From NCBI GenBank assembly GCA_964625065.1, contig CAZUZL010000004.1:11040-75039 (forward strand): a stretch of DNA of 64,000 bases, written 5' to 3'. Shown here piece by piece: positions 44,633 to 61,440 of this stretch. The notes under the pieces are model-generated. The model was not told the origin of the DNA. It did not search any database and saw only the letters and a program-made list of their open reading frames with translations. Position 1 is the first letter of the stretch; each line of letters begins with the position of its first letter. The stretch comes from an uncultured Candidatus Saccharibacteria bacterium (GTDB taxonomy: Bacteria; Patescibacteriota; Minisyncoccia; Phycocordibacterales; UBA9973). The translations under genes were made by a program, and so were the position numbers.

Positions 44633-44687
44633 ATATTATATTTATATTTTTACACATAATAACATAATCTTTATTATATGTAAATAT

Positions 44688-46295
44688 TTATTTTACTAGC
44701 AAATTATCTGATTTTATTAAGTCTCTAACTTTCTCTATTTCAGATCTAACATATACATCCCCTTTATAATCACCTAGTGCCTTTAAAATGGTATTGTACG
44801 CAACTGATGTTCCAGCACCAAGTTTACGTAACTTAGCAGGAAGTTTTTCTTGAGTAATTTGTATACCTCTAGTAGCACACAATAGTTCTATTGCTAGTAA
44901 TGTTTCTAGGTTTTTAATTACTTTACGTAGATGTACTGCACCCACACTCCCCATTGACACAACGTCTTCTTGGTTTGCAGCAGTTGAAACAGACATTACA
45001 GATGCCGGTGTTGAAAGTACTCTGTTTTCAGCAACTCTAGACGCACCTGCATATTGAGCTATCATGTATCCAGCGTCAGCTTTGGAAGTGTCGAAAGCAA
45101 GATCCCCTGGTAAACCATAACTTAGATGTGAATCAAGTAACGAGAAAGATCTTTTATCACTAGCTATACTTAGTGATGTTAATGTCATTTTTACATAATC
45201 TATAGGTGAAGCCAGTAATTGACCGTGGAAATTACCGCCACTGGCAAAAGAAACGGTTTCAGTATTTTTACCATTAATTTTTACAGTTACGGTTTTTTCA
45301 AAATCAAAAACAGGATTATCTGTTACAGAATTAATTTCAGTGGTCAACGTCTGTTTTAACTTTTCGATTGCTTCAAAAGCTGCACCATGAATCTGAGGCG
45401 CGCATCTAAAACTATATCTATCTTGAACACGTTCTTTGTTACGTTCATTTGAAAATTGAATTTCTTGAGATTCTTTTGTTGTTCTCATTGAACCTTTTAT
45501 CAAAGATCGTATTTGTTTTGCAATTGCAATTTGGCCAATATGTCTATCAGATTGCTCGTTTATAAGTTCTTGGAATGCTCGTTTTTCTCCACGTACAGCT
45601 TCTAAAGAAAGCGCTGTACTTAATGAAGCAATATTAAGCAATTTTTCTGCTTCTAGAACAGAAATTGAAGCAATTGATGCAATAAAATTTGAACCATTTG
45701 TTAGACCCATGGCTTCTTTAGCACCTAGTCTAATTGGTTTTATGCCACTTTGCTTTAACGCTTCTGGGGAACTTAATAATTTACCTTTATAATAAGCTTT
45801 ACCGTCTGGTAAACCAATAATAACAGCACCTATCATTGCTAGTGGCACCAAATCTCCACTTGCACCCACAGAACCTTCTTCTAATATCCAAGGTGTAACA
45901 TTTTTATTTAAAAGTTCTATTAGAATATTACACATATCCCAACTTACTCCGGAATGTCCTTTTAGAAATGAGTTAAGTCTAATAACCATAATTGCACGAG
46001 CTTCTGGAATAGATAATGGTTCACCTGTGCCACAATTATGAGTTTTTATATATTTTACTTGATATTCTTCGATGAATTCATAAGGTACAGCAACATCTTT
46101 TAGATCACCATGCAGACGATTTGTTCCGTAAATAGGTATTTCTGGAAAATTTTTAATCTGAGATTCTAGTTTTTTTCGATGATTTTTAATTTTATTCTGA
46201 AGCACTGGACTTACAGACACACCTGATTCTCCGATTGCAATAGAATGAAGCTCTTTTAATGTTAGACTTTTACCTGTTAAATTTATATTACTCAT
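44688..46295 (-). CDS. MIO-dependent aromatic amino-acid ammonia-lyase family protein (histidine ammonia-lyase-like; divergent N-terminal substrate loop)
   Basis: The Ala-Ser-Gly triad that forms the MIO cofactor sits in GSVGASGDLVPLAM. Length is 535 aa, and HAL/PAL-like length and motif order hold throughout. The substrate-loop region reads IYGTNRLHGDL rather than the HAL-typical YGINTGFG. Confidence 0.7.
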   Translation of the reverse strand: MSNINLTGKSLTLKELHSIAIGESGVSVSPVLQNKIKNHRKKLESQIKNFPEIPIYGTNRLHGDLKDVAVPYEFIEEYQVKYIKTHNCGTGEPLSIPEARAIMVIRLNSFLKGHSGVSWDMCNILIELLNKNVTPWILEEGSVGASGDLVPLAMIGAVIIGLPDGKAYYKGKLLSSPEALKQSGIKPIRLGAKEAMGLTNGSNFIASIASISVLEAEKLLNIASLSTALSLEAVRGEKRAFQELINEQSDRHIGQIAIAKQIRSLIKGSMRTTKESQEIQFSNERNKERVQDRYSFRCAPQIHGAAFEAIEKLKQTLTTEINSVTDNPVFDFEKTVTVKINGKNTETVSFASGGNFHGQLLASPIDYVKMTLTSLSIASDKRSFSLLDSHLSYGLPGDLAFDTSKADAGYMIAQYAGASRVAENRVLSTPASVMSVSTAANQEDVVSMGSVGAVHLRKVIKNLETLLAIELLCATRGIQITQEKLPAKLRKLGAGTSVAYNTILKALGDYKGDVYVRSEIEKVRDLIKSDNLLVK

Positions 46296-46394
46296 AAAAT
46301 GATATTAAACCTAATAAATCACTGTATTTTTAGTATATATAATTATAATTAATTAAGCAATATATTTTTAATTCGGTAAACACTAAAAAATACA

Positions 46395-46424
46395 AAAACA
46401 GCTTACATTGTAAGCTGTTTTTTA
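46395..46424. terminator. Terminator between the GNAT gene and the ammonia-lyase gene
   Basis: aaaaacagcttaca-tt-gtaagctgtttttt. Confidence 0.65.
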
Positions 46425-46441
46425 ATAATTTACTCAAAATT

Positions 46442-47113
46442 TTAAACTTGAGAAACCTGGATTGCGGCAATAACCTTTGTTCGACCACTATCTTCTATAG
46501 TATGAACAATATCATAACCTAATTTTTCAACCATCCACTTATAAGTAATACTGGGAGGTTGACTTAAAGTTCTAAAAAATACAACTCCGTCGGGATCTAC
46601 ACTTTTAAAGTGTTGATGTCGAGCAGTATATAGTTTTTTAGCAATACCAGAACCCTGGTATTCTGGAAGTACTGCAATTTCGTCCTGGTATGCAAACCGA
46701 GAATTGTTGATGTCTCTTTTTCTGAAGGAATCTGCAAGTCCGTTGGCACCAAGATGTTTTTCAAGGCTTTCGTTTATCTCAACAAAATAACCCCAACAAA
46801 AACCAACAATGTCATTTTCAGGATTTTCAGCAATAAAACATACTGCACCTTCTTTTCCCATTTCTTTGTAGAAATCCTGCAAGACTTCAGTTTTTGTCCA
46901 GTATTCAACTAACGGAACACTGTATCCGTCAATTTTACAAGTAGAACAATCTTTTTCTGGAAACGATTCAGGGAAATGATGCCCACATTTAGGACATTTC
47001 CAGAACTCACTCCAGTTTTTGTCGGTAGAGAAGACTTTTATATAAGCCTCTGCGATACTAAGTACGTCGGACCAAGAAATTGATTTCAGGTCAACTTTTT
47101 TGATAGTTATCAT
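46442..47113 (-). CDS. GNAT-family N-acetyltransferase with an inserted CxxC...CxxC zinc-ribbon
   Basis: GNAT motif A, QDEIAVLPEYQGSGIAKKLYTA, plus CPKCGHH...CSTC near the N terminus. Confidence 0.55.
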   Translation of the reverse strand: MITIKKVDLKSISWSDVLSIAEAYIKVFSTDKNWSEFWKCPKCGHHFPESFPEKDCSTCKIDGYSVPLVEYWTKTEVLQDFYKEMGKEGAVCFIAENPENDIVGFCWGYFVEINESLEKHLGANGLADSFRKRDINNSRFAYQDEIAVLPEYQGSGIAKKLYTARHQHFKSVDPDGVVFFRTLSQPPSITYKWMVEKLGYDIVHTIEDSGRTKVIAAIQVSQV

Positions 47114-47170
47114 GGTTATTAATATTTAATTTTTATTAATTATATAAAAATTACCATTTTTGTCAATGCA

Positions 47171-47986
47171 CTAAACTGCCAACAAAAAACACTCTTGACC
47201 AACAGCACCTTCTATGTTATGTGCAAAAAGTATTTTAGAATCATATGGTGCTGTTACAACCGTGTTACCATCCATACCAATTATGGTGTCTTTTGAAATA
47301 TTTTCAAAATCTTTAAATACTTTACTTAAAGTAAATTTAGAATTTGTATTTTTATACAAAAAGTTTATAGATATTTTTTCTTGTTTTACTTTATTATTAT
47401 TTCCAGTTGTATGGCCCATAGCCATCAAAAAAGAATTGATTGTTTCTATTGCTTTATCTACAGCAGCAGGGTCTTCATGTTGACCACATTCAACACAGAT
47501 GCCGATTTTATTATTTAAATTCATGTACGAATCTGTTCCGCCGGGTTCAAATTCATCAAAACCAGATACAACTAAATTAAATGGTAACTGTTCAGATATA
47601 AAATTATTTTTAGGTTCTGCAATTATAAACTGCTTACTATCAATGTTTCTACTAGAATGTATGTCCAACAAGGCGTCAGATTTATCAAGTAAAGACCTTA
47701 GTTCAACTGAAATACCATATTCATATGTTTTAAGTTCGTTTTCAGTTAGTTGATCAATATTTTTAAAAGCTCGGTTTAGGTTCATATCGACAAATCTAAC
47801 GTTTTTTTCAACAGCTTTTGGGTTGCCAATTTGAAAAATCACAGTTCCGTTTTCGATATTTAGACCATCTAAAATAGATTCAAAAGCAACAATACCGCAA
47901 GGTTCATTTCCATGGATACCCGCTAAAATAACACTTGTTTTACCAGGGTTTTTACCTGTTTTAGTTATTGGGTATTTTTCTAACAT
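47171..47986 (-). CDS. Succinylglutamate desuccinylase/aspartoacylase (AstE/AspA) family zinc hydrolase
   Basis: ILAGIHGNEPCG (HxxE zinc motif) and LLDIHSS (second His), with a family-typical length of 271 aa. Confidence 0.65.
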   Translation of the reverse strand: MLEKYPITKTGKNPGKTSVILAGIHGNEPCGIVAFESILDGLNIENGTVIFQIGNPKAVEKNVRFVDMNLNRAFKNIDQLTENELKTYEYGISVELRSLLDKSDALLDIHSSRNIDSKQFIIAEPKNNFISEQLPFNLVVSGFDEFEPGGTDSYMNLNNKIGICVECGQHEDPAAVDKAIETINSFLMAMGHTTGNNNKVKQEKISINFLYKNTNSKFTLSKVFKDFENISKDTIIGMDGNTVVTAPYDSKILFAHNIEGAVGQECFLLAV

Positions 47987-48025
47987 ATTTACATGTTATC
48001 AGAAAAAACGAATTATAACAAAATT

Positions 48026-52025: not shown

Positions 52026-52035
52026 CAACCACCTT

Positions 52036-53514
52036 TTAATTCTTCGGTCGCATTATCGGGAAGAAAACAGTATCACGTATATTTTTCTGGTCTGTCATTA
52101 TGGCAACTAGTCTGTCTATACCCATACCGAACCCTGTCATAGGTGGCATGCCGTACTCCATAGCAGTTAGGAAACGTTCGTCGACTTGCATCGCCTCTTC
52201 GTCGCCAGCGTCCTTAGCCTTGGCTTGGGCTTCTAGTAAACTACGTTGTACTATAGGGTTTACAAGTTCGGCGTATTGGTTAGTTATTTCCGCACCACCT
52301 ATTATCAGTTGTGCTACACGGGCAGTACCGTCGGCATTTTGCTGTGCTAGTGGCTTTAAGTCTGCTGGGTAGTCTAGTACAAATGTAGGGTGCACAAGTT
52401 TACCACGAGCAGTTTTTTTATAAATATGGTCTAGCAAATTACCACGTCCAGTTTTTTCAGCTTCAGTTTTATCTAACCCAAGTTCTATTGCCTTGGCACG
52501 CACGTCGTCTAGCGTAGCGTTCATATCAAAATCTGCATATTGTTTTAACAAATCTGCAAAACGTACACGTGGCCATTCTTTACTAAAGTCTACATCTATA
52601 TCGGCACCTTCTTTGTCGTAAACAGTAAATACGTTTTTACCAACAACATCAGTTGCTATACCGCGTAGCATTTGTTCGGTCCATAACATATTTGTTTCCA
52701 AAGATTCGTATGCAGCGTACCATTCTATCATGCTAAATTCCTGCATATGTGTTGGGTCGGTACCTTCGTTACGAAAGTTTTTACCTATTTCATATACACG
52801 TGGGTAACCACCGACCATAAGCATTTTATGTTCTAGTTCCAATGCAATACGTAGCACCATAGGCATGTCGTAGTCGTTGTGGTGTGTGTTAAAAGTACGT
52901 GCCATTGCCCCACCGGCCTGGTTTTGCAATACAGGTGTTTCTATTTCTAAAAAGTCTTTTGTATTAAAAAAGTTTCTAATATAGGTAACCATTTTTGAAC
53001 GGACTATAAAACGGTTTCTGGTTTCTTCGTTCATTAGTATGTCTAGGTAACGTTTACGCTGAGTTTCTTCTACATCCTGTATACCGTTCCATTTGTCTGG
53101 CAATGCTAATAAACTTTTTGTAAGTATTTTCCAACTTGTAACTAACAACGAGTTCTGCCCTGCCTTGGTAACAAACAAGTTGCCTGTAACTTGGATAAAG
53201 TCACCTATATCTGCCGCATCTGTAAATAAAGCAAAAAGTTTTTCATCTATGTCGTCTTTTTTGAAAACAACTTGGAATTTTTCTGTACCGTCAAACAGTG
53301 TTACAAACAGTATTGCACCCTGTCCACGAATAGACATTATACGGCCAGCCAGAGATATTTCCCCGCCTTTTGTTTTCAGTGTTTCAAACTGTTTTGTAAG
53401 TTCTGCCAATGTGTAGTCGTGCTCGACATCACCCGCATATGGGGCCATGCCAGCGTCGACTAGTAATTGCATTTTCTGCATGCGCACAGCGCGAAGTTCT
53501 TCATAAGTAGCCAT
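52036..53514 (-). CDS. lysS: Lysine--tRNA ligase (class II)
   Basis: N-terminal OB-fold anticodon-binding domain, motif 2 FRNEG, and motif 3 GMPPMTGFGMGIDRLVA. Length is 492 aa. Confidence 0.9.
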   Translation of the reverse strand: MATYEELRAVRMQKMQLLVDAGMAPYAGDVEHDYTLAELTKQFETLKTKGGEISLAGRIMSIRGQGAILFVTLFDGTEKFQVVFKKDDIDEKLFALFTDAADIGDFIQVTGNLFVTKAGQNSLLVTSWKILTKSLLALPDKWNGIQDVEETQRKRYLDILMNEETRNRFIVRSKMVTYIRNFFNTKDFLEIETPVLQNQAGGAMARTFNTHHNDYDMPMVLRIALELEHKMLMVGGYPRVYEIGKNFRNEGTDPTHMQEFSMIEWYAAYESLETNMLWTEQMLRGIATDVVGKNVFTVYDKEGADIDVDFSKEWPRVRFADLLKQYADFDMNATLDDVRAKAIELGLDKTEAEKTGRGNLLDHIYKKTARGKLVHPTFVLDYPADLKPLAQQNADGTARVAQLIIGGAEITNQYAELVNPIVQRSLLEAQAKAKDAGDEEAMQVDERFLTAMEYGMPPMTGFGMGIDRLVAIMTDQKNIRDTVFFPIMRPKN

Positions 53515-53635
53515 CCCGTTAGAAGCAGGTCGCGGTCAACAGATCGCTATTTGCTTGATTATTTTTGTAAGTTATATTTGTGTATATTTTTTATAATAAA
53601 TCTCCGTTACTGCGACCGCGGCTTCTAACGGGACC
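53515..53635 (-). promoter_or_regulatory. Long-range inverted repeat in the lysS 5' region, enclosing about 70 bp of AT-rich DNA
   Basis: cccgttagaagcaggtcgcggtc (53515-53537) against gaccgcggcttctaacggg (53612-53630). The proximal arm abuts the lysS ATG. Confidence 0.4.
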
Positions 53636-53704
53636 ATAACATGCATTATAGGCTAAAAACGTTATTATGCCAATATAAAACCCCTGTAACAGGGGTTTTA
53701 GTAT

Positions 53705-54664
53705 TTAGTTAGGACAGTCTGCGTTATATTCTGGTGCGTATACTATAGTTGCATATGCAGTCAAGTTTTGACTGTCTGTAATTCTGGCTGTAACTGTATA
53801 TTTAGGTACAGAATTTATGTTGTTTTTATAACCTTGTACATTTAGTGGGTCTGAAATATAGTATGTCCCTAACGACGATGTTGTACTGGTATTAAAACTA
53901 CTTACAACTGTCCATTCTATTTTTATTGTACCTATACCACCTGTCCATGCCACAGAAGGTTCGTGTTTTTTAGTACAGTACAATGAACTACCAGGTCCGT
54001 TAACGGGTGTTGTGTGGTCTGTTATGGTTACGTTGTTTGGTCCGTCTGTTTTGTAACAGTAACCCAAGTTTTGTGCAGTACTGTTTGTTGTTGGGTTTAG
54101 TTTACCACAGCGTATCTGAACATCGGTACCAGTTGCGTCCTGTCTGTAGTATGTCATAAGTGACGGACCAAATTCGCCACTATTTGGGCAAACGCGACTG
54201 GCAGGGTTTAATGTTTGTGCTGCACGTATAGTACAGTAGTCGCCCATACCTATGTTTGTATTACCAGTTAGCTGTAGGTTGTATCTTATGTCTGGGTAGT
54301 TTGTTGCAGTTAATGTTGGTTCACCTATATCTAGGAAGCCTTTGAACCACGAATACCCAGATACTACACGAAAGTCGCCAGTGTTTGCAGATGTGCCTAC
54401 GTTTACAGAACCACCAGATTCTACATTGGTTCTAGATATTAGGTAGCCTTTATAGTTTGTACTATTTAAAGTATAACCTATACTACCGAACTGACTTGTT
54501 TTAACTTGGTTGTCGTCGCCACGGTTTACTATAACAGATGGGTTACAACTGGTATCACCAGCTGTACATGTCGGGTCGCTCCATGCGGCACTAACCAACA
54601 TAGCAGTACCGGCTACACATATAGCCAGCACCAACGGCGCAATAACTTGTTTAAAGTTTTTCAT
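53705..54664 (-). CDS. Secreted Cys-containing protein, member 1 of the MKNFKQ paralogous family
   Basis: Signal peptide MKNFKQVIAPLVLAICVAGTAMLVSAAW. Conserved blocks shared with the genes at 56302-57231 and 57250-57828 are WxxP[ST]C...CN, SWFKGFLDIGEP, YNLQLTGNTNIGMGDYCTIR and CPNSGEF. An ACTACGGGGTATAAT promoter lies 6 nt before the ATG. Confidence 0.6.
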   Translation of the reverse strand: MKNFKQVIAPLVLAICVAGTAMLVSAAWSDPTCTAGDTSCNPSVIVNRGDDNQVKTSQFGSIGYTLNSTNYKGYLISRTNVESGGSVNVGTSANTGDFRVVSGYSWFKGFLDIGEPTLTATNYPDIRYNLQLTGNTNIGMGDYCTIRAAQTLNPASRVCPNSGEFGPSLMTYYRQDATGTDVQIRCGKLNPTTNSTAQNLGYCYKTDGPNNVTITDHTTPVNGPGSSLYCTKKHEPSVAWTGGIGTIKIEWTVVSSFNTSTTSSLGTYYISDPLNVQGYKNNINSVPKYTVTARITDSQNLTAYATIVYAPEYNADCPN

Positions 54665-54745
54665 ATGTACATTATACCCCGTAGTTAAGCTTTTACCAAT
54701 AGTAATATGTGAAAAATTATATTTTTGGAATCTTAATACGGATCA

Positions 54746-54790
54746 GGCCGGGTAAATAAGGACATTACCCGGCACGATTCTGCAGAATCG
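54746..54790. repeat. Palindromic dispersed repeat, copy C (intergenic)
   Basis: ggccgggtaa-ataaggaca-ttacccggc hairpin plus acgattctgcagaatcg. It matches 22 of 23 positions of the core of copy B in tsaD. Confidence 0.6.
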
Positions 54791-54835
54791 CAAATAAAAA
54801 ACGCCCTTCAGTTAAACTGAAGGGTCGTTAATTGT

Positions 54836-56158
54836 TTACCGAACGATGATTTTCTTAATTGTATAAGTTTTTTCGTTACGGATTTGTAGAACATAAGCAC
54901 CAGCCGGGAAATTAAATTCCACAACGTCACCATCTAATTTTCTTTCCATCAGCACAGACCCTTTAAGGTCAGTTACTGTAAGCACCGATCCGACGTAGTC
55001 GTTAGGCACTTGGAGAGAATATGTAGAAGGCATAGGGTTAGGAATATTCAAAGCCGAAGCATTTTTATATCCGTTAATCCCGTTGGCTTTCGCTTGCAAT
55101 CTTCTTCCTTGAGTTCCGTAGAAAACAAGGTAATCTTTGGTAGCTGCCATTTTACCGACATCAAACAATGATGCATCGGCAATGGCGTTCAGACCAATTA
55201 ATTCGTCGTTTACAGTGTTGTATTCGACAAAGTAGTTAGCTTGGATCTCCTCGTTTGTTCCGCATTTTTTGATAATGTCAGAACTTGCTAGATAGCATTT
55301 TCCTTTGAAAAAACATGCATTGGAAACACCAATGAATTTTTCCTCAAAGTTACCGGTTACTTCATTGTATTTATACAATGTATAATCATAGTAACCAGAA
55401 AAGCAATTTAACAATAACGTATTACCGTCAGTAGCCAAGTCATTGAAAAACAAAGACTTATTAACGACTGGGTATGACAAAACTTTTGTAATTAAGTCAT
55501 AGCACAACACAGATTTGTCGATTCTACCTTCTTTGGTAGAATTTACACCGAAAAACAATTTGTTTTTAAATGGTACAATTTTTTCAATTGACCATTCTTG
55601 TTCTGGTGGAAACAAAGGTGTGATGCTGCCCGTAACCATGTCGTAGATTAGTGCAAACTTTGGAGTATTGGTTTTGCCTTCGATAGAATCGAAGTTGCCA
55701 TACACACAGACTTTAGATTGATCTGCCCATAGGTTGGCCATACGTAGGTCTGCACCTTCTCTAGGAAATGAAGTGTGAGCTTTAAAAATAAAGTATGCAC
55801 TTCCAAATTCGTCGATAAGGTAAAGACTCGAACCATCTCTAGTCAGGTGTTTACGCTGATATGAACCAGCGATAGCACTTGGGTCGTTGAGGTTAAGAAC
55901 TGTTTTAGTTACCACACCTGTTTGGGCGTTTCTACTAATTAATGTTTTTTGACCAACAGCCCAAATAACATTGGTTGTTGTGTCAAAATACTCAGTTCCG
56001 CTAATTTCATTAGTTAACCCACCAAATGTTACAATTTCGTAACCTTTATTTTGGGATAGATTTGTGGCTTGCGCTTTGGTTGTCATGTTTCCTACAAACA
56101 TGACCAACATTGTTGTTAGAATGAACTGTAGGAGTCCATTTTTGTTTGTAAGATTCAT
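54836..56158 (-). CDS. Secreted protein with a T9SS-type (Por) C-terminal sorting domain
   Basis: Signal peptide MNLTNKNGLLQFILTTMLVMFVGNMTTKAQA. The C terminus, NIPNPMPSTYSLQVPNDYVGSVLTVTDLKGSVLMERKLDGDVVEFNFPAGAYVLQIRNEKTYTIKKIIVR, follows the Por_Secre_tail pattern: YPNP...D..G.....G.Y......K.I. Confidence 0.6.
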   Translation of the reverse strand: MNLTNKNGLLQFILTTMLVMFVGNMTTKAQATNLSQNKGYEIVTFGGLTNEISGTEYFDTTTNVIWAVGQKTLISRNAQTGVVTKTVLNLNDPSAIAGSYQRKHLTRDGSSLYLIDEFGSAYFIFKAHTSFPREGADLRMANLWADQSKVCVYGNFDSIEGKTNTPKFALIYDMVTGSITPLFPPEQEWSIEKIVPFKNKLFFGVNSTKEGRIDKSVLCYDLITKVLSYPVVNKSLFFNDLATDGNTLLLNCFSGYYDYTLYKYNEVTGNFEEKFIGVSNACFFKGKCYLASSDIIKKCGTNEEIQANYFVEYNTVNDELIGLNAIADASLFDVGKMAATKDYLVFYGTQGRRLQAKANGINGYKNASALNIPNPMPSTYSLQVPNDYVGSVLTVTDLKGSVLMERKLDGDVVEFNFPAGAYVLQIRNEKTYTIKKIIVR

Positions 56159-56301
56159 GAATAAATTGTGAAGAACGTTAGTGTCCTATCTGTAGGTATT
56201 ATACCATTTCTATAAAAAACAAGCAATACACCTGTGGATAACAGGTGTATTGGTATAATGTATTATTTTATAAGGCTTTAAAAGCTAAATATTAATTTAT
56301 T

Positions 56302-57231
56302 TTACTTTGTCCAGCCACTACTGATCTGTTCCCCACTGCCTGAAATTGTAAGGTTTGCTCTATACATAATGTCGCCCCCGTTTAGGTTTGTACAGTCGTA
56401 TTGTCCAGAACCTGCAGTTGTAGTACCAAAAGTTGTACTAGTTGTACCCGAACCAGTTGTTTTAGTTTCGTAATTTGTAATGGTACCAGCTGTTGTGTTA
56501 GGTGGGTATGTAGTGTTTGCCCATTTACTGATGCTGATAGAAACATTACTTGGTGCATTGTATACAGTTACCGTGTACTGACAGTAACCAACACCACTAC
56601 CAGCAGCGTCGTATGTACGTGCCATACCTACGTTTAGTGACAAGATGTTTGTAAGGCAAGACCCCAAGTTTGCTGGGTTGTCAGACGGGTTTATAAATGT
56701 GCACGCTACCTGTGGCACATTACCATTAGCCCAGTTTGGGTTTATCTGTGATACAAAAGACCCCGGTGGGCAACCCTGTCCACCGTTTAGGTCCTGGTTT
56801 GTTAATGTACAAAAGTCGCCTTTACCCAGATTTGTAGTTGAACCTGGTTTTAATGTCAAAGTATATACAGGTGTTGGTGGTGTTGTTGATACTATTGCAG
56901 AAACTGGGATATTTTGGCCAATATAAACCTTGCCTTTAGTCCAAGCTTGACCAAGTAAAACTCGCAAGCCAGTTTTTTTAGGCTCAATACTTGTATCTGT
57001 ACCAACATAGAAACCATCTCTGGCTTCTATGTCACCCGTTGCACCAAAAAATTTTGCTTCCAATGCACCGTTTTTTAGCTGGCCAGTACTACCGGTGTTA
57101 ACTGTATTTTCTACATTACAACCAGGTGGCGTACAACTGTTCGGTGCCTGTGTTGTGTTTGCTAAAACTACACCACCTATTACAAACATACATACTACTA
57201 GTGCTGGTATTAATTGTTTAAAGTTTTTCAT
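56302..57231 (-). CDS. Secreted Cys-containing protein, member 2 of the MKNFKQ family
   Basis: N terminus MKNFKQLIPALVVCMFVIGGVVLA. Shared blocks AWTKGKVYIGQN, YTLTLKPGSTTNLGKGDFCTLT and CPPGSF. Thr/Gly-rich C-terminal region. Confidence 0.6.
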   Translation of the reverse strand: MKNFKQLIPALVVCMFVIGGVVLANTTQAPNSCTPPGCNVENTVNTGSTGQLKNGALEAKFFGATGDIEARDGFYVGTDTSIEPKKTGLRVLLGQAWTKGKVYIGQNIPVSAIVSTTPPTPVYTLTLKPGSTTNLGKGDFCTLTNQDLNGGQGCPPGSFVSQINPNWANGNVPQVACTFINPSDNPANLGSCLTNILSLNVGMARTYDAAGSGVGYCQYTVTVYNAPSNVSISISKWANTTYPPNTTAGTITNYETKTTGSGTTSTTFGTTTAGSGQYDCTNLNGGDIMYRANLTISGSGEQISSGWTK

Positions 57232-57249
57232 ATATAAAATTTAGTATTA

Positions 57250-57828
57250 TTAACAACTACCTATGTTGTGTGGGTTAACAGACGGGCTTGTGGCTGAACA
57301 AGTTACGTATGGGTATATACCTGTAGCTGTTGGGTTTATCTGTATTATAAAATATCCAGCAGGACAAGATTCGGCAGACGTGCCTGTAACACGGGCCTTT
57401 GTCATGGTGCACCAGTTGCCTCGGCCTATATTTGTTGTTGCCCCACTTTTTAAAGTTAGTGTGTCTGTTGGTGTTACTGGGTAATTAATTGGGCTGTCAG
57501 TTATAGAAGCATCGTTACCTATGTAAACTTTATCGTTAAACCAAGCATTACCACTAAGTATACGCAAACTACCTGTTGGGTTTGTAGACACACTGGAACC
57601 AACCATCAACGGACCTCTTGAAAATATGTACCCCATAGACCCCAAGTAAGTTGAAGTTAGTCCGCCTAATTTTAGCTGGTCTTCGTTATCTATGTTTACA
57701 GGTTCGTCGGCATTACAGCCTGTTGCACCAGGTACACAACTTGGTGCAGTCCACGCAGCAAATGCAACACCAGCAAAAACAATTGAAGCTAGTATTATAG
57801 AAGGTATAAGTTGTTTAAAGTTTTTCAT
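57250..57828 (-). CDS. Secreted Cys-containing protein, member 3 of the MKNFKQ family; shorter, ending where the paralogs continue
   Basis: N terminus MKNFKQLIPSIILASIVFAGVAFAAW. Shared blocks NAWFNDKVYIGND, DTLTLKSGATTNIGRGNWCTMT and CPAGYF. It ends at ...NIGSC, whereas member 2 continues LGSCLTN... Confidence 0.5.
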   Translation of the reverse strand: MKNFKQLIPSIILASIVFAGVAFAAWTAPSCVPGATGCNADEPVNIDNEDQLKLGGLTSTYLGSMGYIFSRGPLMVGSSVSTNPTGSLRILSGNAWFNDKVYIGNDASITDSPINYPVTPTDTLTLKSGATTNIGRGNWCTMTKARVTGTSAESCPAGYFIIQINPTATGIYPYVTCSATSPSVNPHNIGSC

Positions 57829-57861
57829 GGTTATAGTATATCAAAAATTATATAATCTGGT

Positions 57862-58263
57862 TTATTTTTTCTTAGTTTGGTTTGCAGTTTCAGTTGCGCG
57901 TATGTCTACCATAAATTTTTCTGCTTCTGCTACATCAGCTGGGGTTAGTGGTGGTACAGATTTGGTAACTTCGTCCATGCGTTTCAAGGCTTGTTCTGTA
58001 TTAGCGTCCATTACACGCTGTTCTTTGTTTAACCAAAAACCGTTTTTCTGTGCATAAATAAAACCCAAAACTAACAGCACAGTAACAGCAACTACGGTTG
58101 CTATTTTTTTCTTGTCAGATGCACGTTGTTCTATGTTTTTGTTTTTATTTATAGTTTCGTCCAAACGTTGACGCGACAACATGGTGTCGTGCATTTTTTC
58201 TGCTTCTGCACGTTCTTGTTCTTTGATACGTGCAATATGTTGTTGAAGTTCTTCAGGTGGCAT
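57862..58263 (-). CDS. Hypothetical bitopic membrane protein
   Basis: A 133-aa protein with a charged N-terminal domain and one TM helix. Confidence 0.4.
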   Translation of the reverse strand: MPPEELQQHIARIKEQERAEAEKMHDTMLSRQRLDETINKNKNIEQRASDKKKIATVVAVTVLLVLGFIYAQKNGFWLNKEQRVMDANTEQALKRMDEVTKSVPPLTPADVAEAEKFMVDIRATETANQTKKK

Positions 58264-58361
58264 GTGTGTATTATACCTTGAAGTAAAATTTTAAACAACA
58301 CGGCCCAGGTAAATATAGCAAATAAAAATGCACAACGTGTGTGCTTTTTACTATTGTTATA

Positions 58362-58823
58362 TTACGAGAATGAAAGTATGGTGTAGTGCATCATACCTTT
58401 GGGTGTGTTAAAGGTAACTTCCTGGTTTGCTTCTTTGTCTAATATTGCACTACCTAGTGGTGATGTGATAGATATTTTACCTAGACTTATATCTGCATCC
58501 TGTGGACCAACTAGTGTAAAAGTTTTTTCTTCTTTTGTGTCTAGCTTCATTAGCTTTACGGTGTTACCTACTGAAACATGTTTAGTTGCTGTGGTTCCAG
58601 CAAAAACGGTACTGGTTTTTAGTATGTGTTCTATTTCACGTATGCGGTCTTCTAGTTTACCTTGGGCTTCACGGGCTTCGTGGTATTCTGCGTTTTCAGA
58701 AAGGTCGCCTAGGGATTTTGCGTATTCCAATGCGGTTATTATTTCTTTTCTTTTAACGTTTTGTAATTCGTGTAGTTCTTTTTCAAGTTCTGTTTTACGT
58801 TCTTGTGATATAACATTTTTATC
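58362..58823 (-). CDS. greA: Transcription elongation factor GreA
   Basis: N-terminal coiled-coil with conserved acidic residues (LGDLSENAEYHEAREAQ) and a C-terminal FKBP-like domain. Start set at MDKNVISQERK. Confidence 0.85.
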   Translation of the reverse strand, partial: DKNVISQERKTELEKELHELQNVKRKEIITALEYAKSLGDLSENAEYHEAREAQGKLEDRIREIEHILKTSTVFAGTTATKHVSVGNTVKLMKLDTKEEKTFTLVGPQDADISLGKISITSPLGSAILDKEANQEVTFNTPKGMMHYTILSFS

Positions 58824-58871
58824 CATAATAATTAATAATACCACTTTGTATATTTTATGGCAACATATTTG

Positions 58872-60602
58872 TTAATTTGTTGTTGTAGGAACAGTATAAT
58901 TAATTCCCTTTTGCATAACGAAGTCAGGATATGTTGTATAAAGTTCCTCTATGGCAGTACGCATAGCGTGTGACGCAGGTATGTATGCAGTACCAGAACC
59001 GTCGTCCATTAACACCACAAAAGCGTATTCGGGTTTTTCATATGGGAAAAACCCTGTAATCCACGAGTTAACGCGACGTTTAGATATATCTGTCTGTGCA
59101 GTACCAGACTTACCAGCCATATGCAGGTATGGAAAGTTCAACGACTCACCAGTACCTGTGGTTATAACCATGCGTAGTGCTTCGTGTACTACTTGGTACT
59201 GTGCATCTGTAAATGGTAGTTGTTCTGTTTTTGTTAGTTCTGGGTTTGTTTCATTTAAACGTATATGCGGTGTTACTAATGTACCCCGACTAGCTATACC
59301 TGCCATTGCACGCACCATTTGCAACGGCGTTACCTGGAAACCGTATTGTCCGATCGATGTGTGGTATGTGTCGCCTACACGCCATGGGTCTTTGGGGAAA
59401 GTTTTTGCTTTCCATTCTACAGACGGCACTACACCAGCTAGTTCGCCGTCCATGTCTATTCCTGTTTTTAAACCTATACCAAAGTCCTTGGCATATTGGT
59501 TTATGCGGTCTATACCTAGACCCTTTTGGTCTTTGTAGCCACCACCTATTTCGTAAAAATATACGTTCGACGAAACTGCTATGGCTTTACGCATGTCTAC
59601 TAAACCGTGCGCGGCGTTGTCCTTGAAGACTGTGTTTTTAGTAGAGTCAAATGGGTTTGGTATTGTAATCTGTCCAGTACTTAAAATTTGTTTTAATGGG
59701 CTTATAATGTTTTCATTTAGTGCAGCTAACGCTAAATATGGTTTAACTATAGACCCAGGTGTGTACCGCCCTGCTATAGCGCGGTTAATAAAAACTTTTC
59801 TTTTGTCAGTAAAATAGTGCGATATTTTTTCGTTGTCAGTAGCTAGTGACATAACGTTCGAACTGTATTCAGGGTAGCTTGTTATAGCCACAACTTCACC
59901 TGTATGTATGTTCATTATTACACCTGCTCCGCCAGTATAACCTGCATCTGTAGCTAGTTTTTCTATGCCGTGGTACAGCGCAGTTTGCACACGGGCATCT
60001 ATAGACAACACCACATCTGTACCATGCACTGGTTCTTCGGTAATGTTTTCAGATAGAACTTTACCAGTTGCATCTGTTTCAAAATATTTTGCACCGTGTG
60101 TGCCCTCTAACTGTGTTGCATAATACGACTCGACACCGCTTTTACCAGTAAACTGTGTTTGCCAGTAGTTGCCCGATGCGTCTTTCTTAGGGTAGCCAAC
60201 ATAGCCCAACAGGTGCGCATAGCCGCCATCGTTTGTGTATATACGTTTCGAAAAAGCCTCACCTTCCTTCAACTTTTCATTCCATGCCAGGTTTACACCG
60301 TTTCTATCTGTTATCAAACCACGGTCGGCAAATATAGGTACTGATTCGAACGAATTTTTCTCACTTCTTGTTGCAAAATAGTCGCCTTTAGAAATCTGCA
60401 AATACCCTAACCTAAAAATACCACCAACACCAAAAACAAATGCAACTATAAAAATAATATTTAGTGCACGGTGTGGTATAGGTTGTTCTATACGGCCTTC
60501 CATTTGCTGTGTGTTGAACTGTGGCAAATTACGCGCGTCCAGCAGTATTTCGTCGGGGGCTATTTCATGGTAGTATTGTTTTTTTGGTTTCCAGAATTTC
60601 AT
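58872..60602 (-). CDS. mrdA: Penicillin-binding protein 2 (class B transpeptidase, MrdA-like)
   Basis: SxxK in GSIVKPY, SSN in AVSSNVYFYE and KSGTAQ. N-terminal TM helix. An mreD-like gene lies upstream. Confidence 0.8.
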   Translation of the reverse strand: MKFWKPKKQYYHEIAPDEILLDARNLPQFNTQQMEGRIEQPIPHRALNIIFIVAFVFGVGGIFRLGYLQISKGDYFATRSEKNSFESVPIFADRGLITDRNGVNLAWNEKLKEGEAFSKRIYTNDGGYAHLLGYVGYPKKDASGNYWQTQFTGKSGVESYYATQLEGTHGAKYFETDATGKVLSENITEEPVHGTDVVLSIDARVQTALYHGIEKLATDAGYTGGAGVIMNIHTGEVVAITSYPEYSSNVMSLATDNEKISHYFTDKRKVFINRAIAGRYTPGSIVKPYLALAALNENIISPLKQILSTGQITIPNPFDSTKNTVFKDNAAHGLVDMRKAIAVSSNVYFYEIGGGYKDQKGLGIDRINQYAKDFGIGLKTGIDMDGELAGVVPSVEWKAKTFPKDPWRVGDTYHTSIGQYGFQVTPLQMVRAMAGIASRGTLVTPHIRLNETNPELTKTEQLPFTDAQYQVVHEALRMVITTGTGESLNFPYLHMAGKSGTAQTDISKRRVNSWITGFFPYEKPEYAFVVLMDDGSGTAYIPASHAMRTAIEELYTTYPDFVMQKGINYTVPTTTN

Positions 60603-60610
60603 ATATATTT

Positions 60611-60886
60611 TTATGTTCTGGTAAATACTTTTCTAAGCAGAAAAACACCGACCACCAGCACAGCCCCTAGTGCATACACATGTTGCACACCGTAGAAATA
60701 TTGCACGGGTATAGCATATATATAGTCTGCAAATATACCAACGGCTATATATTCGTATGGTATGTAACGCGCAAAAAAACCAAATCCAACAAACAGAACA
60801 AACAAAACCCACCATGGCAAAACTACTGCCACCAGCAGTAAAAACGCACCCAGTATTAGCCTTTTATAAAGTTTGTTTTCTAGCAT
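60611..60886 (-). CDS. MreD-like small membrane protein
   Basis: A 91-aa polytopic hydrophobic protein immediately upstream of PBP2, in the order typical of an elongasome cluster. Confidence 0.4.
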   Translation of the reverse strand: MLENKLYKRLILGAFLLLVAVVLPWWVLFVLFVGFGFFARYIPYEYIAVGIFADYIYAIPVQYFYGVQHVYALGAVLVVGVFLLRKVFTRT

Positions 60887-60976
60887 TTATTTTTATGCGT
60901 CTTTCTTATTACCTGATTCTGCGGAATCATGTCGGACCAACGTTCCTTTAAAGGGCCGACCCTAATTTGCAACAGA

Positions 60977-61348
60977 CTACTTCTTTTTTCCAAAAAGGCC
61001 TTTTAGTAACAAAAGTGATGCAACCACGATAATACCATAAAACAGCATGATATGTGTAAACACATACAGCCCTGCATTATATGCATAGTATTGTACGTAT
61101 GCCACGGGTCCAGCAAACGGCGACTGTGTTGTAGTTGGCACCTGAACACGCAGGTAGTCTGGCAAACTTTGTTGAATAGCATTTTGCAATGCTTGTTTTT
61201 GGTAGTCTTGGAAAAGTTTAACTGGGTCTACACCCTTAGCCTGGCCTTCTAGTTGTTTTTGTTTAACTGTCCATGTAACTATGTGTTGTTGACGAAAATC
61301 TTCGACTTTTTTTACTGGACCTATAGAAAGTAAATTATTAGTTGCCAT
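60977..61348 (-). CDS. Hypothetical protein with a C-terminal TM helix
   Basis: A 123-aa ORF. Confidence 0.35.
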   Translation of the reverse strand: MATNNLLSIGPVKKVEDFRQQHIVTWTVKQKQLEGQAKGVDPVKLFQDYQKQALQNAIQQSLPDYLRVQVPTTTQSPFAGPVAYVQYYAYNAGLYVFTHIMLFYGIIVVASLLLLKGLFGKKK

Positions 61349-61440
61349 ATATATTATGTTTTATATTAATGTACTTATTATACCCTGCAACTTAAGTTTT
61401 CCAAAACAAAAACCACCTTTTGGTGGTTTTTGTTTTTTTA

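What the first reader, a model, noticed from the sequence alone, without database searches (positions are those of the whole stretch)
54836..56158. T9SS-type C-terminal sorting domain in a genome with sigma70 -35/-10 promoters
The last 70 aa, NIPNPMPSTYSLQVP...VTDLKGSVLMERKLDGDVVEFNFPAGAYVLQIRNEKTYTIKKIIVR, follow the Por secretion C-terminal domain pattern (YPNP, an aromatic-Gly pair, and a terminal K-x-I-x-K). That domain is the hallmark of Bacteroidota/FCB type IX secretion. Promoters in this window are classic TTGACA/TATAAT rather than the Bacteroidota -33/-7 type. The gene content otherwise looks like Patescibacteria/CPR. This could be a horizontally acquired cargo protein, a convergent beta-sandwich tail, or evidence that the host lineage has a T9SS-like export route.
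Basis: partly seen in the sequence, partly recalled or inferred. Interest (0 to 1): 0.62.

Follow-up and report, generated by a model that had tools for sequence, protein, structure and literature searches.

The report
T9SS-type tail on hypervariable CPR protein
A tiny single-membrane (CPR) bacterium carries a secreted propeller protein ending in a genuine copy of the tail that Bacteroidota use to push proteins through their outer membrane, and this gene is the one hypervariable spot in an otherwise almost identical genome region, so it is probably an exposed, fast-changing surface protein rather than evidence of that secretion system.

Summary
ORF 54836-56158 (-) encodes a 440-aa protein with a signal peptide, a six-bladed Kelch-like beta-propeller and a true homologue of the T9SS type-A C-terminal domain. 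Evidence for the tail: TIGR04183 scores 25.1 bits on the whole protein and 30.6 on the isolated tail (cut-off 23). A profile built only from CPR tails hits solved T9SS CTDs (NucA, E=9e-7). The best fold match is the NucA CTD in the Flavobacterium translocon. Pfam PF18962 stays just under its threshold. The genome is CPR: the neighbouring LysRS clusters with a Minisyncoccia MAG, and family relatives occur only in Nomurabacteria, Minisyncoccia and "Saccharibacteria" MAGs. The gene is compositionally native and sits in a conserved surface-protein module. No T9SS part and no second CTD protein occur in about 150 kb of CPR sequence. New finding: in a Nomurabacteria MAG the flanks are 92-97% identical in DNA, but this gene is only 54% identical in protein. 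The divergent block starts just after the signal peptide and ends just past the stop codon. Best reading: an anciently captured Bacteroidota-type cargo gene, now a hypervariable surface protein whose tail serves as a constant base domain, not as a T9SS signal. The whole genome could not be checked.

The parts
54836..56158 (-). Gene for the 440-aa secreted propeller-CTD protein (stop codon 54836-54838)
   Evidence: ORF list. Homologues form 6 clusters at 90% identity and 5 at 50%.
56072..56158 (-). Signal peptide, residues 1-29 (n-region K6, h-region LLQFILTTMLVMFVG, c-region NMTTKA, then Q30)
   Evidence: Sequence inspection. AF2 gives an N-terminal helix at residues 6-18 with low pLDDT. MFVGN is invariant in the close subfamily. 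[A/S]|Q is present in 9 of 9 members. The cleavage site is inferred, not predicted by a dedicated tool.
55091..56041 (-). Six-bladed Kelch-like beta-propeller, residues about 40-356; the variable part of the protein
   Evidence: AF2 model, pLDDT mostly 74-92. Foldseek top hits are Kelch domains and BamB. Identity between alleles is 33-51%.
55043..55090 (-). Linker, residues 357-372 (RLQAKANGINGYKNAS); low-confidence in the model but 94% identical in the two nearest alleles
54839..55042 (-). T9SS type-A C-terminal domain homologue, residues 373-440 (PNP ... G-x-Y ... KKIIVR)
   Evidence: TIGR04183 at 25.1 and 30.6 bits against cut-off 23. PF18962 at 20 and 24.2 bits, below 27. CTD-only AF2 model with pLDDT 86.7. 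Foldseek best hit 8glk_D, the NucA CTD, TM 0.66/0.71. CPR-only profile against the PDB.
56198..56206 (-). Extended -10 promoter box TGgTATAAT, about 40 nt upstream of the ATG; no Shine-Dalgarno in the leader
   Evidence: Sequence read; -10 scan.
54804..54824 (-). Intrinsic terminator hairpin (9-bp stem plus T run), 12 nt after the stop codon
56224..56252 (-). Intrinsic terminator of the upstream gene (12-bp stem plus T run); it isolates the target as its own transcription unit
54791..56046 (.). Hypervariable allelic block: 45-77% nucleotide identity to the Nomurabacteria MAG locus L002, while the flanks are 92-97% identical
   Evidence: blastn and sliding-window identity; protein identities.
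53705..54664 (-). Downstream partner: secreted Cys-rich 'MKNFKQ' family protein (319 aa), always adjacent to the target family
   Evidence: No Pfam, NCBIfam, PHROG or PADLOC family.
56302..57231 (-). Upstream MKNFKQ paralogue (309 aa)
57250..57828 (-). Upstream MKNFKQ paralogue (192 aa)
57862..58263 (-). 133-aa single-pass membrane protein, the first gene of the conserved module; a homologue is also next to the distant family members
   Evidence: (L001_150 at 52% identity; L006_133 at 28% identity, E=5e-6).

Best explanation
The gene encodes a Sec-exported surface or extracellular protein of a Nomurabacteria/Minisyncoccia-type CPR bacterium. It consists of a cleavable signal peptide, a six-bladed Kelch-like beta-propeller, a short linker, and a C-terminal beta-sandwich that is a true homologue of the Bacteroidota T9SS type-A sorting domain.

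Shown: the domain homology, the CPR genomic setting, native composition, a conserved surface-protein gene module, the absence of T9SS genes or other CTD proteins in the sequence available, and the gene's status as a hypervariable allelic cassette whose boundaries lie just after the signal peptide and just after the stop codon.

Inferred: (1) The propeller+CTD gene was captured long ago from a Bacteroidota-type T9SS cargo gene and has since been inherited within one narrow CPR clade. (2) Because these cells have one membrane and no translocon, export stops at Sec. The tail no longer works as an outer-membrane translocation signal. It is kept as the constant base domain that folds independently and holds or presents the variable propeller at the cell surface, probably by non-covalent binding to a wall, S-layer or neighbouring-gene component. 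(3) The propeller is the exposed, interaction-determining face (adhesion to a host cell or surface, or a target of phage or host recognition). Its alleles are exchanged by homologous recombination through the conserved flanks under diversifying or frequency-dependent selection.
For: Domain: TIGR04183 above its cut-off. The CPR-only tail profile hits experimentally validated CTDs. The fold match is best to the translocon-bound NucA CTD, followed by the PorZ, RgpB and mirolase CTDs. The invariant residues P373, N374, P375, G420, Y422 and K436 match the type-A consensus, including the near-invariant functional Lys described in PMC10994853.

Organism: the LysRS cluster carries the name Minisyncoccia. 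Family loci occur only in CPR MAGs. The window holds housekeeping genes and no outer-membrane or T9SS genes. Described CPR are monoderm.

Resident, not recent: GC is 0.376 against a window mean of 0.381, and codon-usage distance is +1.4 sd. The same module order (TM133, MKNFKQ paralogues, target, MKNFKQ) appears in independent assemblies from NCBI, ENA, JGI and Logan. A related order (TM133, target, MRNLKQ, then PilB-PilC-pilins) occurs in members only 26% identical.

Hypervariability: L002 flanks are 92-97% identical in DNA and flanking proteins are 91-100% identical, while the target is 54% identical. A second allele (P0009, 60% identical) lies on a contig whose LysRS falls in the same 90%-identity cluster.

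Constant ends, variable middle: against P0009 the signal peptide is 70%, the propeller 51%, the linker 94% and the CTD 91% identical. The CTD is better conserved than the propeller in 24 of 36 pairs.

Donor type: the closest non-family tails lie in SusC/SusD- and OEP-bearing contigs, one of which also encodes a 396-aa Kelch+CTD protein. [A/S]|Q at the signal-peptidase site in 9 of 9 members fits the Bacteroidetes Q-rule.

Not a general sorting tag: there is only one CTD ORF in about 150 kb of CPR loci. This tail subtype occurs on no other passenger among 1.84 billion representatives.
Against: The anchoring or base-domain role of the tail is inferred. No partner was identified, and no wall-binding activity is known for type-A CTDs. 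The whole genome was not scanned, so T9SS absence rests on 64 kb, related loci and general CPR biology. Within the close subfamily the tail is conserved far better than a merely structural appendage might need, and the functional Lys is invariant, which could point to a specific recognition partner. PF18962 is below its gathering score for this protein. The tails of the two CPR sub-clades are only 23% identical, no closer than to Bacteroidota tails, so a single ancient acquisition is not demonstrated. The CPR identity of the distant loci L005-L010 is inferred from shared lineage-specific neighbours, not from a named record. The signal-peptide cleavage site was read by eye.
Confidence: 0.55

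Rival explanations
1. The tail is still a working sorting or attachment signal in this CPR clade. An unrecognised non-T9SS machinery reads it, for example components encoded by the conserved neighbours or the adjacent type IV pilus/T2SS-like operon, and uses it to place or anchor the protein on a single-membrane envelope.
For: Within the close subfamily the tail is the best-conserved segment, at 58-91% against 33-51% for the propeller. The functionally important C-terminal Lys is invariant in 9 of 9 members. The linker is 94% conserved in the near alleles. The gene is always next to the same secreted and membrane proteins, and in one sub-clade it lies 80 nt upstream of, and on the same strand as, PilB-PilC-pilin genes.
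Against: Only this one family carries the tail in all the CPR sequence seen, and the tail subtype is on no other passenger. A sorting system with a single client is unusual. The conserved CTD motifs specify the fold rather than contacts (PMC10994853). In L002 the MKNFKQ neighbours stay 91-97% identical while the tail drops to 60%, so no co-variation is visible. The pilus linkage exists in one sub-clade only.
Confidence: 0.12
2. Host mimicry. The CPR cell lives on a Bacteroidota host and displays a T9SS-type tail (with a variable propeller) that docks onto the host's surface-exposed CTD-binding proteins (PorV shuttle, PorU/PorZ attachment complex). The protein would then be a host-attachment or host-range determinant.
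For: The tail and the Q+1 signal-peptide feature are Bacteroidota-like. Hypervariability on an identical backbone is typical of host-interaction determinants. The closest foreign tails come from Bacteroidota-type contigs.
Against: There are no data on the host. The variable part is the propeller, not the tail, so specificity would not reside in the mimic. In T9SS the CTD is presented from the periplasmic side of the translocon (PMC10994853), and binding from outside is undemonstrated. This reading is entirely speculative.
Confidence: 0.06
3. Recent horizontal transfer of a Bacteroidota cargo gene, with the tail a functionless relic on its way to being lost.
For: The domain is otherwise characteristic of Bacteroidota/FCB. 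Codon usage is slightly atypical at +1.4 sd. The leader has no -10 box at the start codon, unlike many neighbouring genes.
Against: GC content is native. Synteny is conserved in CPR assemblies down to 26% identity. No full-length homologue occurs outside these CPR-type contigs among 1.84 billion representatives. The tail is under strong conservation rather than decaying.
Confidence: 0.04
4. The resemblance is convergent or due to chance: a generic Ig-like beta-sandwich that happens to score on the CTD models.
For: PF18962 is below its gathering score. Foldseek also lists generic Ig domains at E values of 0.005-0.05.
Against: The match to TIGR04183 is full-length and above the cut-off. The reciprocal profile search returns almost only extreme-C-terminal tails (135 of 140), and all of those scored are TIGR04183-positive. 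The CPR-only profile hits validated CTDs at E=9e-7. The same invariant motif set is present.
Confidence: 0.02
5. Assembly chimera or bin contamination: a Bacteroidota gene mis-joined into a CPR contig.
For: None specific. MAG-derived sequence always carries this risk, and one hit (L004) bears a probably wrong 'Saccharibacteria' label.
Against: The same gene order is recovered in independent assemblies from NCBI (76-kb contig), ENA, JGI and Logan. Flanking terminators and promoter are intact. Composition is native.
Confidence: 0.01

Closest known systems
T9SS type-A CTD cargo proteins of Bacteroidota (e.g. Flavobacterium johnsoniae NucA and RemZ, Porphyromonas gingivalis RgpB and PorZ; TIGR04183/PF18962)
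   Same: N-terminal Sec signal peptide, a passenger domain, and a roughly 70-aa beta-sandwich at the extreme C-terminus with the PNP, G-x-Y and near-terminal Lys motifs. Sequence and fold homology are demonstrated. Q at +1 of the signal-peptidase site matches the Bacteroidetes Q-rule.
   Different: The host is a monoderm CPR bacterium with no detectable T9SS or outer-membrane genes in the sequence available. Only one family per locus set carries the tail. The Tyr of YPNP is lost in the window's sub-clade. The tail is better conserved than the passenger. The gene is a hypervariable allele. Secretion through a T9SS is therefore not expected.
Small Kelch/beta-propeller + CTD proteins of Bacteroidota (e.g. 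the 396-aa protein at L011:2938-4128)
   Same: Same three-part architecture and size. This is a plausible donor type.
   Different: There is no specific homology of the propeller bodies (hhalign probability 18%). Only the tails are related.
'Choice-of-anchor' repeat-propeller surface proteins (GloVer repeats, TIGR03803; delta-60-like repeat propellers)
   Same: A beta-propeller passenger joined to a lineage-dependent C-terminal anchor. The window's own 1754-aa GloVer protein ends in a peptidoglycan-binding domain. The metagenomic protein P0030 has GloVer repeats plus a T9SS CTD. The blade motif G-x-FDSI-x-G resembles that of P0025.
   Different: Similarity of the target's blades to these repeats is weak (hhalign probability 30-52%). 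The target does not hit TIGR03803.
Hypervariable surface proteins with constant ends and a variable middle (flagellins, type IV pilins, surface antigens): an analogy only
   Same: Conserved N-terminal export region and C-terminal domain, a highly divergent central exposed domain, and alleles exchanged between otherwise near-identical genomes.
   Different: No sequence or structural relationship. No filament or assembly role is indicated.

Membership tests
T9SS type-A C-terminal sorting domain (domain family TIGR04183 / PF18962) | Score at or above the curated cut-off of NCBIfam TIGR04183 (23 bits) | tested here: met
   25.1 bits on the whole protein and 30.6 bits on the isolated tail. All 8 CPR family tails match. 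P0022 scores 27.4 and P0023 scores 45.8 bits.
T9SS type-A C-terminal sorting domain (domain family TIGR04183 / PF18962) | Score at or above the Pfam PF18962 gathering score (27 bits) | tested here: not met
   20 bits on the whole protein and 24.2 bits on the tail. Seven of 8 family tails match at E<=0.01 (best 1.7e-9), and precomputed PF18962 hits exist for P0004-P0006 and P0023. The window's own copy is sub-threshold for this model only.
T9SS type-A C-terminal sorting domain (domain family TIGR04183 / PF18962) | Located at the extreme C-terminus of the protein | tested here: met
   The match covers residues 373-440 of 440.
T9SS type-A C-terminal sorting domain (domain family TIGR04183 / PF18962) | Compact Ig-like beta-sandwich fold superposable on solved CTDs | tested here: met
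   CTD-only AF2 model with pLDDT 86.7. The Foldseek best hit is 8glk_D, the NucA CTD (E=4e-4, TM 0.66/0.71, rmsd 2.3), followed by the PorZ, RgpB and mirolase CTDs. Caveat: the model's alignment was dominated by Bacteroidota-type tails, and generic Ig domains score nearby.
T9SS type-A C-terminal sorting domain (domain family TIGR04183 / PF18962) | Conserved motifs, including the near-invariant, functionally important Lys near the C-terminus (PMC10994853) | tested here: met
   P373, N374, P375, G420, Y422 and K436 are invariant in 9 of 9 family members. The same columns are invariant or nearly so across 50 tails.
T9SS cargo protein (functional class: secreted through a type IX secretion system) | N-terminal Sec signal peptide | tested here: met
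   By inspection: K6, a 15-residue hydrophobic core, and T-K-A|Q. AF2 gives an N-terminal helix. No dedicated predictor was available.
T9SS cargo protein (functional class: secreted through a type IX secretion system) | The genome encodes the T9SS core (SprA/Sov, PorK/L/M/N or GldK/L/M/N, PorV, PorU, PorP/T) | not testable with these tools
   None was found among the proteins of the 64-kb window scanned with Pfam and NCBIfam, nor in the gene tables of the related loci.
T9SS cargo protein (functional class: secreted through a type IX secretion system) | The organism has an outer membrane across which the CTD directs transport | not testable with these tools
   The literature states that described CPR are monoderm (PMC8871954). 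NCBI places Minisyncoccota in the kingdom Bacillati. No outer-membrane biogenesis genes occur in the window. None of this is a direct test of this organism.
T9SS cargo protein (functional class: secreted through a type IX secretion system) | Several different cargo proteins per genome share the tail | tested here: not met
   There is only one CTD-bearing ORF in the window and one per related CPR locus, always this family. The sample is about 150 kb, not whole genomes.
Bacteroidetes Q-rule substrates (PMC5837995) | Gln at position +1 of the signal peptidase I cleavage site | tested here: inconclusive
   [A/S]-Q at the end of the c-region in 9 of 9 family members, whereas the MKNFKQ neighbours have A|A, A|N and A|A. 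The cleavage site was assigned by eye, and an alternative AQA|T site exists in the window's copy.

The most novel reading that the evidence does not exclude
The T9SS-type tail is not a fossil but an active recognition module in a single-membrane CPR bacterium. Either it is read by an undescribed envelope-sorting or anchoring machinery of CPR, possibly linked to the neighbouring MKNFKQ/TM133 proteins or the type IV pilus operon. Or it is displayed to dock onto the CTD-binding surface proteins (PorV/PorU/PorZ) of a Bacteroidota host, making this hypervariable locus a host-attachment or host-range determinant of an episymbiont.
Probability: 0.15. Interest if true: 0.85.

Novelty: new variant of a known kind. 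Interest (0 to 1): 0.55.

Why it matters
The type-A CTD is treated as a signature of the Bacteroidota/FCB type IX secretion system. Here a bona fide copy, with its fold motifs and key lysine intact, is stably maintained in a monoderm CPR lineage, where it cannot do its textbook job. This shows that the domain can be kept for another purpose, and it cautions against inferring a T9SS from CTD hits in metagenome bins. More usefully for CPR biology, the gene marks a recombining hypervariable surface locus inside a conserved module of unknown secreted proteins. That is the kind of locus expected to govern attachment, host range or phage susceptibility in these uncultured episymbionts. It gives a concrete and testable candidate: the variable propeller, with constant signal peptide and tail.

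Tried and rejected
(1) A search with the CTD alone in the word-indexed protein database returned nothing because the query was too short.
(2) Exact look-ups of the 440-aa and 424-aa versions of the window protein found no contig on record.
(3) Source names gave no taxonomy for the distant loci L005-L010 or for the tail-only hits. Their nature was inferred from neighbouring genes instead.
(4) Both metagenome scans, with the family and with the CPR-type tail, found no relatives. One attempt failed because no stretch was conserved enough.
(6) Four literature searches for T9SS or CTD in CPR/Patescibacteria/Parcubacteria found nothing relevant. A fifth, on the phylogenetic distribution of TIGR04183, also found nothing relevant.
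(7) A phage or defence-island origin of the module is rejected: no PHROG or PADLOC hits apart from one marginal PHROG match at E=0.0055.
(8) A DGR-type mechanism was considered and rejected. Divergence spans the whole gene rather than a short A-biased variable repeat, and no reverse transcriptase appeared among the window proteins scanned.
(9) Specific homology of the propeller to a Bacteroidota Kelch+CTD protein, to the window's GloVer protein, or to P0025 is not supported (hhalign probabilities 18%, 30% and 52%).
(10) A distance tree of the tails could not resolve single from multiple acquisition.
(11) Prepilin-type processing of the MKNFKQ neighbours was considered and rejected. They have ordinary AxA signal-peptidase sites and no G|F-x-x-x-E motif.
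Full report
**1. The observation**

The ORF is real and at the stated coordinates: 54836-56158, minus strand, 440 aa, ending ...NIPNPMPSTYSLQVPNDYVGSVLTVTDLKGSVLMERKLDGDVVEFNFPAGAYVLQIRNEKTYTIKKIIVR. NCBIfam TIGR04183 (T9SS type A sorting domain) matches residues 373-440 over model positions 3-72 of 72. It scores 25.1 bits against a curated cut-off of 23. Pfam PF18962 matches the same stretch at 20 bits, below its gathering score of 27. On the isolated tail the scores rise to 30.6 bits and 24.2 bits. On single-sequence HMM evidence the call is therefore borderline-positive, and I sought independent evidence.

**2. Is the tail a true T9SS-type CTD?**

The protein has few relatives: six clusters at 90% identity and five at 50% identity among 1.84 billion representatives. 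In their alignment the tail is the best-conserved part.

- An HMM built only from these tails retrieved 140 unrelated proteins from the hits. In 135 of them the match ends within 5 residues of the C-terminus, and the 70 tails printed carry the canonical PNP (mostly YPNP), G-x-Y and basic C-terminal (K/R-containing) motifs.
- All 50 tails placed in one alignment, including all eight CPR tails, hit TIGR04183.
- A profile made only from the eight CPR tails finds experimentally studied CTDs in the PDB. These include the F. johnsoniae NucA CTD bound in the translocon (8glk_D, E=9e-7), a second F. johnsoniae substrate CTD (8glj_D, 1.1e-6), and the CTDs of an ice-binding protein, a beta-agarase, a lipase and gingipain.
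- A CTD-only AlphaFold model (pLDDT 86.7) has 8glk_D as its best Foldseek match (TM 0.66/0.71, rmsd 2.3 A). The CTDs of PorZ, RgpB and mirolase follow, interleaved with generic Ig domains. Its alignment was dominated by Bacteroidota-type tails, so this is supporting rather than independent evidence.
- The residues invariant in all nine family members (P373, N374, P375, G420, Y422, K436) are the ones conserved across type-A CTDs. Lauber et al. 2024 report that these motifs specify the fold, and that only a near-invariant, functionally important Lys near the C-terminus may do more (PMC10994853). That Lys is K436.

Conclusion: homology is established, and convergence or chance is rejected.

**3. 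What organism is this?**

- The neighbouring LysRS belongs to a 90%-identity cluster that includes 'MAG: lysine--tRNA ligase [Minisyncoccia bacterium]'. Minisyncoccia is a class of Minisyncoccota in the kingdom Bacillati.
- A scan of one genome per species (185,579 species) found the family only in a Candidatus Nomurabacteria MAG, a Minisyncoccia MAG, and a 2.3-kb contig labelled Saccharibacteria.
- The window carries housekeeping genes: FtsZ, enolase, pyruvate kinase, LDH, Val/Leu/His/Lys-tRNA ligases, LepA, MurJ, two PBPs, MraZ/RsmH and GreA. No outer-membrane or T9SS gene appears among the proteins scanned.
- Promoter check: 13 of 43 genes have a TATAAT-like box ending 4-12 nt before the start codon (6.8% at random positions). 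Only one gene has a Shine-Dalgarno-like motif. None has the Bacteroidota TAnnTTTG element. The generic two-hexamer scan of the local region is not significantly enriched.
- The few CPR organisms described are monoderm (PMC8871954).

The genome is not an FCB member.

**4. Anatomy of the protein and its locus**

The full-length model (pLDDT 71.8) shows four parts: an N-terminal helix (the signal peptide), a beta-propeller at about residues 40-356 with pLDDT mostly 74-92, a low-confidence linker, and the beta-rich tail. The propeller's best PDB matches are six-bladed Kelch domains and BamB.

The gene is its own transcription unit:
- a 12-bp-stem terminator of the upstream gene (56252-56224);
- an extended -10 box TGgTATAAT (56206-56198), about 40 nt before the ATG;
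- no Shine-Dalgarno;
- a 9-bp-stem terminator 12 nt after the stop codon (54824-54804).

It is compositionally native: GC 0.376 against a window mean of 0.381 +/- 0.042, GC3 0.347 against 0.299 +/- 0.054, and codon-usage distance +1.4 sd.

**5. Conserved context**

The gene always lies in the same module. The order is a 133-aa single-pass membrane protein, one to three paralogues of a secreted Cys-rich protein with the N-terminus MKNFKQ(L/V)I, the target, and another MKNFKQ paralogue. GreA/PBP2 lie on one side and LysRS/MraZ/RsmH on the other. Independent assemblies from NCBI, ENA, JGI and Logan all show this.

The two most distant family members (P0022 and P0023; 26-27% identity, E 1e-45 and 1e-40) have more canonical IYPNP tails (TIGR04183 at 27.4 and 45.8 bits). 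They again sit between homologues of the 133-aa protein and an MRNLKQ-family protein. There the module lies directly upstream of PilB, PilC, two prepilin-like genes, a 584-aa protein, TIM and PGK.

None of the module proteins matches Pfam, NCBIfam or PADLOC. The only PHROG match is marginal, for the 319-aa MKNFKQ protein at E=0.0055. The gene is therefore an old resident of a narrow CPR clade, not a recent import or a chimera.

**6. The key new finding: hypervariability**

The Nomurabacteria locus L002 is colinear with window 52034-61400. Its flanking proteins are 91-100% identical to the window's: PBP2 96, GreA 100, TM133 96, MKNFKQ paralogues 91, 93 and 97, and LysRS 97. The target is only 54% identical.

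At nucleotide level the flanks are 92-97% identical. A block from about 56046 (codon 38, just after the signal peptide) to about 54791 (just past the stop codon and terminator) drops to 45-77%. Divergence this far beyond that of the flanks, which include their synonymous sites, cannot have built up in place since the two genomes split. It requires allele replacement by recombination or long-maintained polymorphism.

A second allele (P0009, 60% identical) lies in the same gene order, on a contig whose LysRS is in the same 90% cluster. Against the window it is 70% identical in the signal peptide, 51% in the propeller, 94% in the linker and 91% in the tail.

At slightly greater genomic distance (L001 and L003; PBP2 and GreA 90-94%) the whole surface module is divergent: TM133 52-59%, MKNFKQ 39-58%, target 40-42%. 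Overall the ends are constant and the propeller is variable, and the target is the fastest-evolving gene of a fast-evolving surface module.

**7. Is the tail a general sorting tag here?**

A broad CTD profile searched against the six-frame translation of the window and all related CPR loci (about 150 kb) finds only this family. In the exhaustive representative search the CPR tail subtype occurs on no other passenger. The best tail-only hit scores about 48 bits as a whole protein in that search, and about 51 bits against the family-tail HMM, against about 150 bits for family tails.

The closest tail-only hits lie in diderm genomes. One contig has SusC/SusD; another has a TolC-like OEP and a 396-aa Kelch+CTD protein. 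That protein shares the architecture but has no specific body homology. This argues against a multi-client T9SS-like pathway in these CPR, with the caveat that whole genomes were not examined.

**8. Origin**

Three features point to a Bacteroidota-type donor:
- the architecture (signal peptide, small propeller, type-A CTD);
- the identity of the nearest foreign tails;
- a Gln directly after the predicted signal-peptidase site in 9 of 9 members (TKA|Q, SKA|Q, AYS|Q, VAA|Q and so on).

The last feature is the Bacteroidetes-specific Q-rule (PMC5837995). The MKNFKQ neighbours do not follow it. The cleavage sites were read by eye.

A distance analysis of tails cannot resolve one acquisition from several. 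The two CPR sub-clades' tails are 23% identical, no closer than to Bacteroidota tails.

**9. Mechanism proposed**

Shown: the domain composition, the CPR setting, residency, module linkage, hypervariability with defined boundaries, and the absence of T9SS genes and other CTD proteins in the sampled sequence.

Inferred: export by Sec and signal peptidase I. The tail has no role in outer-membrane translocation. It is retained as a constant, independently folding base that holds or presents the variable propeller at the cell surface. The propeller is the exposed interaction face, under diversifying selection, with alleles swapped by homologous recombination through the conserved flanks. I give this reading a confidence of about 0.55.

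The main rivals are (a) an unrecognised CTD-reading anchoring system in CPR, and (b) mimicry aimed at a Bacteroidota host's CTD-binding surface proteins. The unusually strong conservation of the tail, the linker and the key Lys keeps both alive. Neither has direct support.

**10. Comparison and novelty**

The tail is a member of the T9SS type-A CTD domain family. TIGR04183, position, fold and motifs are all met, and only the Pfam threshold is missed. The protein cannot be filed as T9SS cargo. The genome-level requirements were not testable. The one testable functional expectation, several cargoes sharing the tail, was not met in the sample.

No paper in the held library describes T9SS-type CTDs in CPR, although automated annotation will already label such proteins. 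I rate it a new variant of a known kind: a known domain in a new cellular and evolutionary context, attached to a newly recognised hypervariable CPR surface locus. Interest is 0.55.

Noticed in passing
window-wide; e.g. starts at 54664(-), 58263(-), 32332(+), 28679(-), 40841(-), 42503(-), 57828(-), 35520(-), 13926(+): Thirteen of 43 genes have a TATAAT-like -10 box ending 4-12 nt (mostly 6-7 nt) before the start codon, against 6.8% of random positions. Only 1 of 43 has a Shine-Dalgarno-like motif. This suggests widespread leaderless mRNAs in this CPR genome. The target gene is an exception, with a leader of about 33 nt.
   Followed up: partly
window 53705-54664(-), 56302-57231(-), 57250-57828(-); L001 7897-9863; L005 1738-2643; L006 7213-8109: A family of secreted, Cys-rich proteins has a near-identical N-terminus MKNFKQ(L/V)IP / MRNLKQ and a mature start like AWT-x-PSC-x-PP-x-CN. 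It matches nothing in Pfam, NCBIfam or PADLOC, and only one paralog has a marginal PHROG match (E=0.0055). It is present in 1-3 copies flanking the target in every locus, and in the distant sub-clade it lies directly upstream of PilB/PilC/pilin genes. Function unknown; a possible partner of the target.
   Followed up: partly
window 57862-58263(-); L001 7411-7863; L006 5233-5634: A 133-aa single-pass membrane protein with a charged N-terminal region is the conserved first gene of the module (52% identity in L001; 28% identity, E=5e-6, in L006). It has no convincing family match.
   Followed up: partly
window 35577-40841(-): A 1754-aa protein has at least 13 GloVer 'choice-of-anchor' repeats (TIGR03803, 407.6 bits), an AIR9-type Ig domain and a C-terminal peptidoglycan-binding domain (PF01471). 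It is a giant wall-anchored surface protein. The same repeat class occurs with a T9SS CTD in the metagenomic protein P0030.
   Followed up: partly
window 40941-42503(-): A 520-aa secreted protein has an N-terminal bacterial Ig-like domain (Big_12) and a Vgb-lyase-family beta-propeller. It is another propeller surface protein next to the GloVer giant.
   Followed up: no
window about 43300-48000 (HisRS 43295-44632, histidine ammonia-lyase 44688-46295, ORFs 46442-47113 and 47171-47986): This is a low-GC stretch (GC 0.31-0.34 in 2-kb windows; GC3 0.16-0.20 for HAL, HisRS and the 271-aa ORF, against a window mean of 0.30). A histidine ammonia-lyase next to HisRS is an unusual pairing for a reduced CPR genome. 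A foreign origin is possible.
   Followed up: no
L004 (CAYWWG010000063.1, 2295 bp): This contig is labelled 'uncultured Candidatus Saccharibacteria bacterium', yet it carries the target family (39% identity) followed by an MKNFKQ319 homologue (53% identity), the same order as in the Nomurabacteria/Minisyncoccia loci. The label or the binning of this short contig is probably wrong.
   Followed up: partly
L006 493-5202 and L006 8190-14416 (also L005, L007, L008): In the distant sub-clade the module is preceded by a 1569-aa protein with weak BACON-domain hits. It is followed by PilB (MshEN+T2SSE), PilC, two proteins with prepilin-like N-termini (G|VTLLE, G|FSLIE), a 155-aa and a 584-aa protein, then TIM and PGK. 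No secretin gene is present. This is a monoderm-type type IV pilus operon.
   Followed up: partly
window 13926-15248(+): The TsaD homologue is 440 aa, with three matched stretches to the 264-position TsaD model. It is longer than usual and may be a fusion or carry an insertion.
   Followed up: no
P0009 versus the window protein (alignment A1/A2): The alleles are mosaic. Against P0009 the tail is 91% and the linker 94% identical while the propeller is 51%. Against P0011 the linker is 94% but the tail only 60%. This suggests recombination breakpoints inside the gene as well as at its borders.
   Followed up: partly
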